From sequence record NC_025447.1: a stretch of 64,000 bases of DNA; one strand, 5' to 3'. The notes below the pieces were generated by a model. That model saw nothing but the letters and a program-made list of their open reading frames with translations. It had not been told where the DNA came from and searched no databases. The DNA comes from Escherichia phage 121Q. The position numbers were made by a program, and so were the translations under genes. Below are positions 33,944 to 34,447 of the stretch, piece by piece. The stretch's first letter is position 1. Every line of letters begins with the position of its first letter.

Positions 33944-34447
33944 ATGAAATCTATTATTGCCAATAACGAAATCACCGCAAAAACTGTACGTCTTGTTACG
34001 GAAGGTGCAAGTGAGGTCATGGCAATCTCTAAAGCACTTACTTTAGCAGAAAATCAAGGATTGGATTTGGTGGTTATTGGTGCAGGTGATGAACCTGCTG
34101 TCAAAATTACAGATCTTAACAAATACAAATATGAGTTGAAGCAAGCTGAAAAGGCTTCTCTTAAAAAACAACGACAAAATGCCGTGAGTATTAAAGAGAT
34201 TCAATTCAACTTTGGTACACAAGAGCACGATTTGCAGATTAAAGCAAAAAGTGCTGAAAAATTCCTTGATGAAGGAAAACATGTACATATTGTAATGAAA
34301 ACTTCAGGACGTGGAACTAATGCATCAGTAATTCAAGCAAATATTAATGCAATGGAATCATTCGTTAATCGTTTGGGTAACGTTTCATATGTTCAAAAAG
34401 TCGAGTTCCAAGGTAAAAAGGTAACCTGTACTGTCAAAGTAAAATAA
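33944..34447 (+). CDS. translation initiation factor IF-3-like protein
   Basis: Aligns along both domains of bacterial InfC (VRLV..G.LG..S...AL..A...GLDLV, then KEIQF..GT.EHD.Q.K...FL.EGK). Preceded by TTGACA-17-TATAAT promoter. Confidence 0.75.

What the first reader, a model, noticed from the sequence alone, without database searches (positions are those of the whole stretch)
33944..34447. Phage-encoded translation initiation factor IF-3 homolog
The 167-aa product aligns along both domains of bacterial InfC: N-domain VRLV..G..LG..S...AL..A...GLDLV and C-domain KEIQF.FGT.EHD.QIK...FL.EGK.V...M...GR. It lacks the N-terminal tail of cellular IF3. A phage copy of an initiation fidelity factor could reprogram start-codon or mRNA selection during infection. 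Cellular infC is itself autoregulated through its unusual start codon, so a phage copy may perturb that circuit.
Basis: partly seen in the sequence, partly recalled or inferred. Interest (0 to 1): 0.75.

Follow-up and report, generated by a model that had tools for sequence, protein, structure and literature searches.

The report
Jumbo-phage copy of initiation factor IF3

Summary
Observation confirmed. Window 33944..34447 (+) encodes a 167-aa protein that matches IF3_N, IF3_C and the infC equivalog model. Its AlphaFold model (pLDDT 91) superposes on 30S-bound IF3.

It is not new. The window is an Asteriusvirus (PBECO4-like) jumbo phage. The identical protein is annotated as IF-3 in GenBank, forms PHROG 9787, and is discussed in several papers. 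No functional test was found.

What I added:
- The gene is old in the lineage, under purifying selection, and not captured from E. coli.
- A perfect sigma-70 consensus promoter sits 44 nt upstream, and the start codon is AUG rather than the autoregulatory AUU.
- IF3, a ClpS-like adaptor and a KTSC protein form a block conserved down to about 35% IF3 identity.
- The clade keeps the 30S-binding residues (D106, K110, K/R112, Y75, R133; E. coli numbering). It has lost the basic residue at R131, E134 and E159, which face the start codon and tRNA. These are the sites with the greatest loss of constraint.

Best reading: an early-expressed, ribosome-binding IF3 that supplements or displaces host IF3, with weakened proofreading. 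The proofreading part is inferred only.

The gene is already known. Interest is modest, but the prediction is sharp and testable.

The parts
33871..33899 (+). Perfect sigma-70 consensus promoter (TTGACA, 17 nt, TATAAT); the -10 hexamer ends 44 nt before the IF3 ATG
   Evidence: only 3 perfect matches in the 64-kb window against 0.17 expected (0 of 100 shuffles reach 3). It is identical in PBECO4, with 0 differences in the intergenic region. Promoter-like sites scoring at least 10 of 12 lie 34-55 nt upstream of the IF3 start in RaK2, GAP32, Phosso, L007, L009 and L010.
33930..33933 (+). Shine-Dalgarno GGAG, 10 nt upstream of the ATG
   Evidence: Read directly from the sequence. GGAG also precedes the start codon in the orthologs.
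33944..34447 (+). IF3 (infC-like) coding sequence: 167 aa, ATG start, TAA stop
   Evidence: It is 100% identical to the proteins of slurp01, Sharanji, phAPEC6 and SP27, which are annotated as IF-3.
33962..34156 (+). IF3 N-terminal domain (aa 7-71), with the b-hairpin loop shortened by 2 residues (between A22 and S23) relative to the cellular G31-E-Q-L-G35
   Evidence: Pfam IF3_N E 5.8e-16. The deletion is present in 47 of 52 clade members against 13 of 124 other IF3s. G35 is kept in 0 of 52 against 86 of 124.
34115..34180 (+). Lys-rich linker helix (aa 58-79), including Y63, which corresponds to E. coli Y75
   Evidence: Helix 58-79 in the model. Y or F at this site in 52 of 52 clade members. 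Y75 contacts the 30S platform and its mutation lowers fidelity (PMC5037330; PMC7145577).
34184..34438 (+). IF3 C-terminal (ribosome-binding) domain, aa 81-165. D96, K100, K102 and R123 correspond to E. coli D106, K110, R112 and R133
   Evidence: Pfam IF3_C E 8e-14. Conservation in the clade is 52/52, 52/52, 47/52 and 49/52. The roles of D106, K110 and R112 in ribosome binding are described in PMC3401457.
34298..34336 (+). Degenerate codon-facing motif K119-T-S-G-R123-G124 (cellular 129-RFRGR-133 followed by E134), then a clade-specific 3-residue insertion (V129-I-Q131)
   Evidence: Basic residue at E. coli position 131 in 4 of 52 clade members against 112 of 124 others. Acidic residue at 134 in 2 of 52 against 100 of 124. 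The insertion is absent from 122 of 124 others. These sites show the largest loss of constraint in the clade. The role of R131 is described in PMC5037330 and PMC11775629.
34461..35006 (+). ClpS-like adaptor gene (181 aa), 13 nt downstream of IF3 and probably co-transcribed
   Evidence: Pfam ClpS E 2e-5 at 24.7 bits, cutoff 23. PHROG 15940. No +-strand terminator-like site between 33900 and 37640. The adjacency is conserved in RaK2, GAP32, XaC1, L008, L009 and L011; the gene at that position in L007 and L010 gives no Pfam match. The binding pocket is altered and extensions are present.
35078..35623 (+). KTSC-domain protein gene (181 aa), the third member of the conserved block
   Evidence: Pfam KTSC E 6.3e-14. 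It is conserved downstream of ClpS in L007 to L011. Iyer et al. 2021 list IF3 and the KTSC protein together as candidate translation helpers.

Best explanation
The gene encodes a genuine, selectively maintained IF3 paralog of the RaK2/PBECO4-like jumbo phages. It is transcribed from a strong sigma-70-type promoter, probably early in infection and together with the ClpS-like and KTSC genes. It is translated from a normal AUG with a Shine-Dalgarno sequence, so it escapes the AUU-based autoregulation of cellular infC. The protein most likely binds the host 30S subunit at the normal IF3 site, with the CTD on h44/h24/h45 and the linker on h23/h24. There it would provide IF3's anti-association and initiation-complex functions, keeping a pool of initiation-competent 30S subunits for the very large phage transcriptome. 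The elements that in cellular IF3 face the start codon and the initiator tRNA are no longer conserved in this clade: R131 of the RFRGR motif, E134, R99 and E159. I therefore infer that its proofreading of the codon-anticodon pair is weakened. On this view the factor competes with host IF3 while being more permissive. Shown here: homology, fold, selection, conservation of binding residues, loss of constraint at the codon-facing sites, the promoter and start-codon features, and the synteny. Inferred: 30S binding, early expression, and relaxed fidelity and its benefit.
For: Purifying selection is shown by dN/dS of 0.12-0.25 against RaK2, GAP32 and XaC1, and by 2 differences in 504 nt against PBECO4 while neighbouring genes differ by 7-9%. 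The gene is present in every genus of the lineage that was sampled and in metagenomic relatives down to about 35% identity with the same synteny. It was not captured recently from the host: there is no DNA match in 5,426 E. coli genomes and it is about 29% identical to E. coli IF3. The 30S-binding residues are kept: D106 52/52, K110 52/52, K/R112 47/52, Y/F75 52/52, R133 49/52, with their roles described in PMC3401457 and PMC5037330. The codon- and tRNA-facing residues are lost: basic at 131 in 4/52 against 112/124, acidic at 134 in 2/52 against 100/124, acidic at 159 in 0/52 against 87/124, basic at 99 in 3/52 against 74/124. Positions 134, 131, 31, 35, 100 and 130 show the largest gain in entropy, even though the clade is less diverse overall. 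In the literature, Thermus Arg123 (E. coli R131 by my mapping) H-bonds U+2 and the +4 base, and Glu151 (E159 by my mapping) approaches the tRNA D-loop (PMC5037330). R131P promotes initiation at non-AUG codons, on leaderless mRNAs and with unconventional initiator tRNAs, and mycoplasma and mitochondrial IF3 carry natural variants of the motif (PMC11775629). The promoter evidence is, the AUG start, and the phage's use of host RNAP with its own RpoD-like sigma.
Against: There are no biochemical, transcriptomic or genetic data for any phage IF3 (PMC11895373 says the function cannot be stated). Variability at positions 130, 131 and 134 shows lost constraint but not a new permissive function, and a compensating contact from the 3-residue insertion or the clade-specific Q103 or K175 cannot be excluded. 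The phage shows no obvious need for relaxed initiation. Of 33 neighbouring annotated genes, 30 start with ATG and most have SD-like sequences. No convincing leaderless genes were found in the window. The phage tRNA(CAU) is not an initiator. The 124 comparison sequences were taken as mostly cellular without checking each one. The Thermus-to-E. coli residue mapping relies on a +1 numbering offset that I inferred from two Arg/Lys spacings. The phage's own sigma factor might recognise the same promoter, so early timing is not proven.
Confidence: 0.55

Rival explanations
1. It is a plain IF3 booster. The phage copy is functionally equivalent to host IF3, including full fidelity. It simply raises or maintains IF3 supply after host gene expression is shut off, and the motif differences are compensated elsewhere in the protein.
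For: The full two-domain fold and the conserved binding residues support this. Phage genes use canonical ATG starts with SD sequences. R133, G132 and a basic residue at position 129 are retained, and K158 occupies the b-hairpin R168 position. The Atu_ph07/Phosso phage IF3s keep the canonical RFKGRE motif, which shows that a canonical IF3 is useful to jumbo phages.
Against: The site whose side chain contacts the start codon (R131) is non-basic in 48 of 52 clade members, and E134 and E159 are lost. Equivalent changes in E. coli (R131P) and in mycoplasma or mitochondrial IF3 reduce discrimination.
Confidence: 0.25
2. It is a competitive modulator or inhibitor. The phage protein occupies the IF3 site on 30S to interfere with host initiation or with host infC autoregulation, contributing to host shut-off rather than supporting initiation.
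For: The binding determinants are conserved while the functional motif is degenerate. The strong promoter predicts high abundance. Jumbo phages are reported to target host ribosomes very early in infection (cited in PMC11895373).
Against: Phage mRNAs in this region look like ordinary SD-led, AUG-initiated messages and would be inhibited too. The NTD, the linker and Y75, which are needed for the dynamic IF3 cycle, are all under constraint. A mere blocker would not need them.
Confidence: 0.08
3. It works as a coupled IF3 and Clp module. The ClpS-like adaptor (ClpX in Atu_ph07-like phages) directs a host translation component to Clp proteases while the phage IF3 takes over its role. Alternatively, the phage IF3 is itself regulated by Clp.
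For: IF3 is immediately adjacent to a Clp-system gene in two phage lineages: ClpS-like in RaK2-like phages, and ClpX in Atu_ph07, Phosso and L012. In Atu_ph07 a small heat-shock protein and a ClpS adaptor lie about 4 kb further downstream. The ClpS-like protein keeps E79, which corresponds to a ClpA-docking residue (role recalled from memory, not checked here), but has an altered N-degron pocket and added extensions, which suggests new substrate specificity.
Against: Both arrangements lie in the same replication and topoisomerase block, so inherited synteny explains the adjacency equally well. The huge-phage IF3 genes have no Clp neighbour. No literature link between ClpS and IF3 was found. 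No interaction was tested.
Confidence: 0.07
4. It has a role outside start-site selection. The phage IF3 would be used for 30S maturation checkpoints (RbfA release) or for re-mobilising or splitting idle and hibernating ribosomes in slow-growing hosts.
For: IF3 releases RbfA from mature 30S, and this requires Y75-dependent dynamics, which are conserved here (PMC7145577). Relatives also encode an HPF/S30EA-type protein and other translation helpers. These activities would not need the codon-facing motif.
Against: The evidence is purely circumstantial, and nothing in the locus points specifically to ribosome biogenesis or hibernation.
Confidence: 0.05

Closest known systems
Bacterial translation initiation factor IF3 (InfC; TIGR00168; Pfam IF3_N + IF3_C), e.g. 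E. coli 8jsg_A and Thermus 5lmn_X
   Same: It shares the two-domain architecture with a Lys-rich helical linker and a similar size. D106, K110, K/R112, Y75, G132 and R133 are conserved, and the predicted fold superposes on 30S-bound IF3.
   Different: It is about 29% identical to E. coli IF3. The RFRGR motif reads KTSGR. E134, E159 and R99 are lost. The NTD hairpin has a 2-residue deletion and there is a 3-residue insertion after the motif. The start codon is AUG rather than AUU. The gene lies in a phage replication block next to ClpS-like and KTSC genes rather than in thrS-infC-rpmI-rplT.
The same gene in published RaK2-like jumbo phages (PHROG 9787: PBECO4, 121Q, phAPEC6, Sharanji, RaK2, GAP32, CBB, fHe-Yen9-04 and others)
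   Same: The protein is identical or orthologous, with 99-100% amino-acid identity to PBECO4, Sharanji and phAPEC6 and the same synteny. It is already annotated as IF-3 and discussed in papers.
   Different: There is nothing different at the gene level. The published work stops at annotation, and in the papers searched I found no report of the motif decay, the promoter, or the conservation of the IF3, ClpS and KTSC block.
IF3 of Atu_ph07, Phosso and related rhizobial jumbo phages, and of huge-phage MAGs (Al-Shayeb 2020)
   Same: These are also phage-encoded full-length IF3s. In Atu_ph07 and Phosso the gene also lies beside a Clp gene (ClpX) and near topoisomerase II.
   Different: They keep the canonical residues (R99, P100, K131, E134, H137, G31, G35) and start with GTG or TTG. 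They group away from the RaK2-like clade in an NJ tree. The huge-phage copies have no Clp neighbour.
Natural and mutant IF3 variants with an altered RFRGR motif: E. coli R131P, mycoplasma IF3 (R131 replaced by P, F or Y), mammalian IF-3mt (KKGK)
   Same: The canonical arginine at position 131, in the loop that faces the start codon, is lost or replaced. These variants are reported to permit non-AUG and leaderless initiation and unconventional initiator tRNAs (PMC11775629).
   Different: In those systems the change matches a known need, such as leaderless mRNAs, non-AUG starts or altered initiator tRNA. No such need is visible in this phage. The phage clade shows variable residues at the site, not one fixed replacement.

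Membership tests
Bacterial IF3 (InfC) family | IF3_N domain (a/b fold, Pfam PF05198) | tested here: met
   E 5.8e-16 and 58.9 bits against a cutoff of 26.9, aa 7-71. The model matches 1tif and 6o6d NTD structures at TM 0.78-0.81.
Bacterial IF3 (InfC) family | IF3_C domain (b-a-b-a-b-b, Pfam PF00707) | tested here: met
   E 8e-14 and 51.8 bits against a cutoff of 34.8, aa 81-165. The model matches the 1tig CTD at TM 0.85.
Bacterial IF3 (InfC) family | Full-length equivalog score (NCBIfam TIGR00168) | tested here: met
   110.4 bits against a cutoff of 60.
Bacterial IF3 (InfC) family | Lys-rich helical inter-domain linker with the conserved Tyr (E. coli Y75) | tested here: met
   Helix at aa 58-79 in the model. 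Y63 aligns with Y75, and the clade has Y or F at this site in 52 of 52 members.
Bacterial IF3 (InfC) family | CTD residues implicated in 30S binding (D106, K110, R/K112) | tested here: met
   D96, K100 and K102 in the window protein. Clade conservation is 52/52, 52/52 and 47/52. The roles are described in PMC3401457.
Bacterial IF3 (InfC) family | Conserved 129-RFRGR-133 motif facing the start codon (R131), followed by E134 | tested here: not met
   The window protein has K-T-S-G-R-G. A basic residue at 131 occurs in 4 of 52 clade members against 112 of 124 others, and an acidic residue at 134 in 2 of 52 against 100 of 124. The motif is described in PMC11775629.
Bacterial IF3 (InfC) family | Autoregulated non-canonical start codon (AUU in E. 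coli) and thrS-infC-rpmI-rplT context | tested here: not met
   The start is ATG with a GGAG SD. The orthologs use ATG, GTG or TTG and never ATT. The context is Dda helicase, two small genes, IF3, ClpS-like, KTSC. For contrast, the bacterial contig L015 shows thrS, infC and rpmI. This is a feature of many cellular infC genes, not of the protein family itself.
Bacterial IF3 (InfC) family | Biochemical activity: 30S binding, 70S dissociation, discrimination of start codon and initiator tRNA | not testable with these tools
   This requires purified protein and ribosomes. No published test of any phage IF3 was found.
PHROG 9787 (phage 'translation initiation factor') | Full-length match to the family profile | tested here: met
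   E 6e-71 and 238.7 bits, aa 1-167 on profile positions 1-167 of 168.

The most novel reading that the evidence does not exclude
The RaK2/PBECO4-like IF3 is a proofreading-relaxed initiation factor. It would be made early from a consensus promoter together with a re-specified ClpS-like adaptor and a KTSC protein. The three would act as a unit that takes over the host initiation step: the phage factor displaces host IF3 on 30S subunits (or replaces it after Clp-directed removal of a host component) and changes which mRNAs or start sites are accepted during infection.
Probability: 0.12. Interest if true: 0.75.

Novelty: already known. Interest (0 to 1): 0.35.

Why it matters
How large phages bias the host translation machinery towards their own messages is an open and active question. 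IF3 is the factor that decides which start sites and initiator tRNAs are accepted. Here a phage-encoded copy keeps the ribosome-binding surface but has released the codon-inspecting motif from selection. That makes it a natural experiment separating IF3's anti-association function from its proofreading function. It also yields a simple, falsifiable prediction of relaxed start-codon and leaderless discrimination in a genetically tractable E. coli phage system. The existence of the gene itself is not news.

Tried and rejected
- **Recent capture from the host: rejected.** blastn in distant mode finds no match in 5,426 complete E. coli genomes. The protein is about 29% identical to E. coli IF3. 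The closest non-clade representatives among 1.84 billion proteins are under about 45% identical.
- **Pseudogene or chance ORF: rejected.** The HMM scores, the pLDDT-91 model, the dN/dS values and conservation across genera all argue against it.
- **Co-adaptation with a phage initiator tRNA: rejected.** The window has no tRNA genes. The tRNA(CAU) of the close relative Sharanji has a paired G1-C72, lacks the three G-C pairs in the anticodon stem and has a long variable arm, so it is not an initiator.
- **Phage need for non-canonical or leaderless initiation: no support.** Of 33 annotated genes around the locus, 30 start with ATG. A scan for strong promoters ending 4-9 nt before ORF starts gave only three weak candidates.
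- **A general IF3 and Clp association in all phages: not supported.** Two huge-phage genomes have other neighbours. Some 'phage' database hits are bacterial contigs, such as Acinetobacter phage MD-2021a with thrS, infC and rpmI.
- **Literature support for Clp-dependent turnover of IF3: none found**.
- **Published transcriptomics for this phage group:** nothing relevant in the phAPEC6 or fEgEco12 papers.
- **A correction of my own recollection:** I had remembered infC362 as R131P, but the literature says it is Y75N. R131P is a separate suppressor allele.
- **Co-folding of IF3 with the ClpS-like protein: not attempted.** The structure tool returns no inter-chain error or contact information, so the result could not have been judged.
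Full report
**1. The observation**

The ORF at window 33944..34447 (+) starts with ATG, ends with TAA and encodes 167 aa. GGAG lies 10 nt upstream of the ATG.

- It matches Pfam IF3_N (aa 7-71, E 5.8e-16) and IF3_C (aa 81-165, E 8e-14), both above the gathering thresholds. It also matches the NCBIfam infC equivalog TIGR00168 at 110 bits against a cutoff of 60.
- By sequence it hits solved IF3 chains from E. coli and Thermus at about 1e-17.
- An AlphaFold2 model built on a 104-sequence alignment has mean pLDDT 91.3. It shows the IF3 layout of an a/b NTD, a long linker helix (aa 58-79) and a b-a-b-a-b-b CTD.
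- Foldseek puts it on 30S-bound Thermus IF3 (5lmn_X) at E 6.6e-14 and TM 0.75 over 169 columns, followed by E. coli and mitochondrial IF3.

**2. Where the window comes from, and what is already known**

The 3-kb neighbourhood is 96-97% identical to about 20 Asteriusvirus genomes of 310-373 kb, including PBECO4, slurp01, G17, Sharanji and phAPEC6.

- The protein is 100% identical to entries annotated 'infC / translation initiation factor IF-3'. In all, 93 phage records carry a homolog.
- It is PHROG 9787, 'translation initiation factor'.
- The CBB paper (2017) notes IF-3 in CBB, GAP32, 121Q, PBECO4 and RaK2.
- Iyer et al. 2021 list IF3 and the KTSC protein as possible translation helpers of group 2.2 jumbo phages.
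- Al-Shayeb et al. [quoted passage not shown]
- The Sharanji paper states that the function in phages cannot be stated.

I found no experimental test. The finding as written is real but already known, and its functional idea is the standing hypothesis.

**3. Evolution**

- There is no DNA similarity to any of 5,426 complete E. coli genomes. Identity to E. coli IF3 is about 29%.
- In a search of 1.84 billion representative proteins, only 6 score below 1e-30.
- The representatives I looked up, down to about 35-44% identity, lie on contigs with the same gene order. That order is DHFR and/or RNase H, a Dda-like helicase, one to three small genes, IF3, a ClpS-position gene, KTSC and topoisomerase II. 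The loci are L007 to L011, and the gene at the ClpS position has no Pfam match in L007 and L010.
- RaK2, GAP32 and XaC1 share this order.
- An NJ tree separates this RaK2-like superclade from the other IF3s. Atu_ph07 and Phosso group elsewhere. The tree is weakly resolved and I do not lean on it.
- dN/dS against RaK2, GAP32 and XaC1 is 0.12-0.25, with dS near saturation.
- Against PBECO4 the IF3 gene has 2 differences in 504 nt and the upstream intergenic region has none. The flanking 196-aa and 529-aa genes differ by 6.8% and 9.0%.

The gene is old in the lineage and under purifying selection.

**4. Expression signals**

- A perfect TTGACA-17-TATAAT promoter lies at 33871..33899, 44 nt before the ATG. 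Only three perfect matches occur in the 64-kb window against 0.17 expected.
- Sites scoring at least 10 of 12 lie 34-55 nt upstream of IF3 in RaK2, GAP32, Phosso, L007, L009 and L010 (12/12 in L010).
- These phages use host RNA polymerase and encode an RpoD-like sigma factor. Early transcription is therefore likely but not proven.
- No terminator-like site follows on the + strand before about 37.6 kb. The ClpS-like gene begins 13 nt after the IF3 stop, so co-transcription is likely.
- The start codon is ATG here and ATG, GTG or TTG in the orthologs, never ATT. The phage copy would therefore escape the AUU-based autoregulation known for E. coli infC (established knowledge).

**5. Residue-level anatomy**

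I then compared 52 RaK2-like clade sequences with 124 other IF3s.

*Kept in the clade (E. coli numbering)*

| Site | Clade conservation |
|---|---|
| D106 | 52/52 |
| K110 | 52/52 |
| K/R112 | 47/52 |
| Y/F75 | 52/52 |
| R133 | 49/52 |

D106, K110 and R112 are implicated in ribosome binding, and Y75 is critical for fidelity and linker dynamics (PMC3401457, PMC7145577, PMC5037330).

*Lost or changed in the clade*

| Feature | RaK2-like clade | Other IF3s |
|---|---|---|
| Basic residue at 131 | 4/52 | 112/124 |
| Acidic residue at 134 | 2/52 | 100/124 |
| Acidic residue at 159 | 0/52 | 87/124 |
| Basic residue at 99 | 3/52 | 74/124 |
| G35 | 0/52 | 86/124 |
| 2-residue deletion in the NTD hairpin | 47/52 | 13/124 |
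| 3-residue insertion after the motif | nearly all clade members | 2/124 |

- The window protein reads K119-T-S-G-R123-G where cellular IF3 reads R-F-R-G-R-E.
- Per-site entropy shows that positions 134, 131, 31, 35, 100 and 130 lost the most constraint, although the clade is less diverse overall (mean entropy 1.72 against 2.30 bits).
- Some sites gained constraint: Q at 103 (49/52 against 3/124), K at 175 (50/52 against 12/124), and K at 78 and 122.
- Atu_ph07, Phosso and L012 keep the canonical motif.

**6. What these sites do**

[quoted passage not shown] Arg91 lies nearby, Arg159 of the b-hairpin approaches the codon and anticodon stem-loop, and Glu151 approaches the tRNA D-loop and is proposed to repel it (PMC5037330).
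- I mapped these to E. coli R131, R99, R168 and E159. The mapping uses the HMMER alignments plus a +1 numbering offset that fits both the R-x-R and the R-x-K spacings. This mapping is my inference.
- PMC11775629-RFRGR-133 highly conserved in bacteria. It reports that R131P promotes initiation at non-AUG codons, on leaderless mRNAs and with unconventional initiator tRNAs. It also reports that mycoplasmas replace R131 by P, F or Y, and that a mitochondrial-type KKGK variant of E. coli IF3 no longer inhibits leaderless initiation.

By analogy, the phage IF3 should bind 30S normally but inspect the codon-anticodon pair less stringently.

**7. Does the phage need relaxed initiation?**

I found no sign of it.

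- Of 33 annotated genes around the locus, 30 start with ATG, and most have SD-like sequences.
- A scan for strong promoters ending 4-9 nt before long ORFs gave three weak candidates.
- The tRNA(CAU) of the close relative Sharanji is not an initiator.

The variable residues at 130, 131 and 134 therefore fit loss of constraint better than a new specific function. The phage seems to need the binding, anti-association and dynamics functions of IF3, but not its proofreading.

**8. The neighbours**

- IF3 is followed by a ClpS-like protein (Pfam ClpS, just above threshold here, E 9e-11 in GAP32) and a KTSC-domain protein.
- In Atu_ph07, Phosso and L012 a ClpX homolog sits immediately upstream of IF3. 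In Atu_ph07 a small heat-shock protein and a ClpS adaptor lie about 4 kb downstream.
- Both arrangements are near topoisomerase II genes, so common descent of the block is as good an explanation as functional coupling.
- Two huge-phage IF3 genes have unrelated neighbours.
- The window's ClpS-like protein keeps E79 but has D-D-P for N34-D35-D36 and N for H66. It also carries N- and C-terminal extensions, whereas the deep relatives L009 and L011 are short and keep N-D-D.

This association remains unexplained.

**9. Verdict**

The gene is already known.

The most likely mechanism is an early-expressed, ribosome-binding IF3 that supplements or competes with host IF3 and has weakened proofreading. 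My confidence in this composite is about 0.55. It is about 0.97 for genuine IF3 homology, about 0.7 for IF3-like 30S activity and about 0.4 for relaxed fidelity.

Noticed in passing
window 34461..35006: The ClpS-like adaptor directly after IF3 has an altered N-degron pocket. E. coli N34-D35-D36 reads D-D-P and H66 reads N, while E79 is kept. It also has roughly 70-aa N-terminal and 30-aa C-terminal extensions. Deep metagenomic relatives (L009, L011) are short and keep N-D-D.
   Followed up: partly
window 35078..35623: A KTSC-domain protein (Pfam E 6e-14) is the third conserved member of the IF3, ClpS and KTSC block. Its 3' end overlaps the next gene (35595..37184) by 29 nt.
   Followed up: partly
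L005/L019 (Atu_ph07), L006 (Phosso), L012: In rhizobial jumbo phages a ClpX homolog (zf-C4_ClpX plus AAA_2) lies immediately upstream of a canonical IF3. In Atu_ph07 a small heat-shock protein, thymidine kinase and a ClpS adaptor follow within about 4 kb on the same strand.
   Followed up: partly
window 20443..20471 and 52055..52083: These are the only other perfect TTGACA-N17-TATAAT matches in the window. The one at 52055 is intergenic and sits 48 nt before an SD-led ATG at 52132. It is straddled by an inverted repeat (GAGTGCGTTTT ... AAAACGCACTC) followed by a T-run, which could be an overlapping terminator or operator.
   Followed up: no
L016 29374..29463 (-), Escherichia phage Sharanji (outside the window): The annotated tRNA-Met(CAT) is a 90-nt type-II tRNA with a long variable arm, a paired G1-C72 and no three G-C pairs in the anticodon stem. 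It is therefore not an initiator. It has a Ser/Leu/Tyr-type body with a CAU anticodon, and it lies next to a tRNA-Ser with the unusual anticodon ACT.
   Followed up: partly
window 33066..33656 and 35624..37184: Divergence from PBECO4 is concentrated in these two genes, at 6.8% and 9.0% of nucleotides. One is a 196-aa protein whose XaC1 ortholog is annotated as structural, and the other is the 529-aa virion protein. The Dda, IF3, ClpS-like and KTSC genes between and beside them differ by 0.4-1.7%.
   Followed up: no
L015 (CAKLQH020000014.1, 'Acinetobacter phage MD-2021a'): This 'phage' record is a bacterial chromosomal contig carrying fadD, thrS, infC and rpmI. Several other low-identity tblastn hits are unannotated fragments of 2-7 kb and may also be host DNA. 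Counts of 'phages with IF3' from this collection are therefore inflated.
   Followed up: partly
L014 2932..3462 (735-kb huge phage LR756501): This otherwise canonical huge-phage IF3 also has a non-basic residue at the R131 position (F-F-S-G-R-E).
   Followed up: no
window 1..64000: The window is the replication, recombination and nucleotide-metabolism block of the phage, nearly all on one strand. By comparison with the PBECO4 annotation it carries terminase, SSB, UvsX/UvsY-like proteins, DNA polymerase parts, primase, ribonucleotide reductase, DHFR, RNase H, Dda, topoisomerase II and the clamp loader. Many genes labelled 'virion structural protein' are interspersed, and there are no tRNA genes.
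   Followed up: partly
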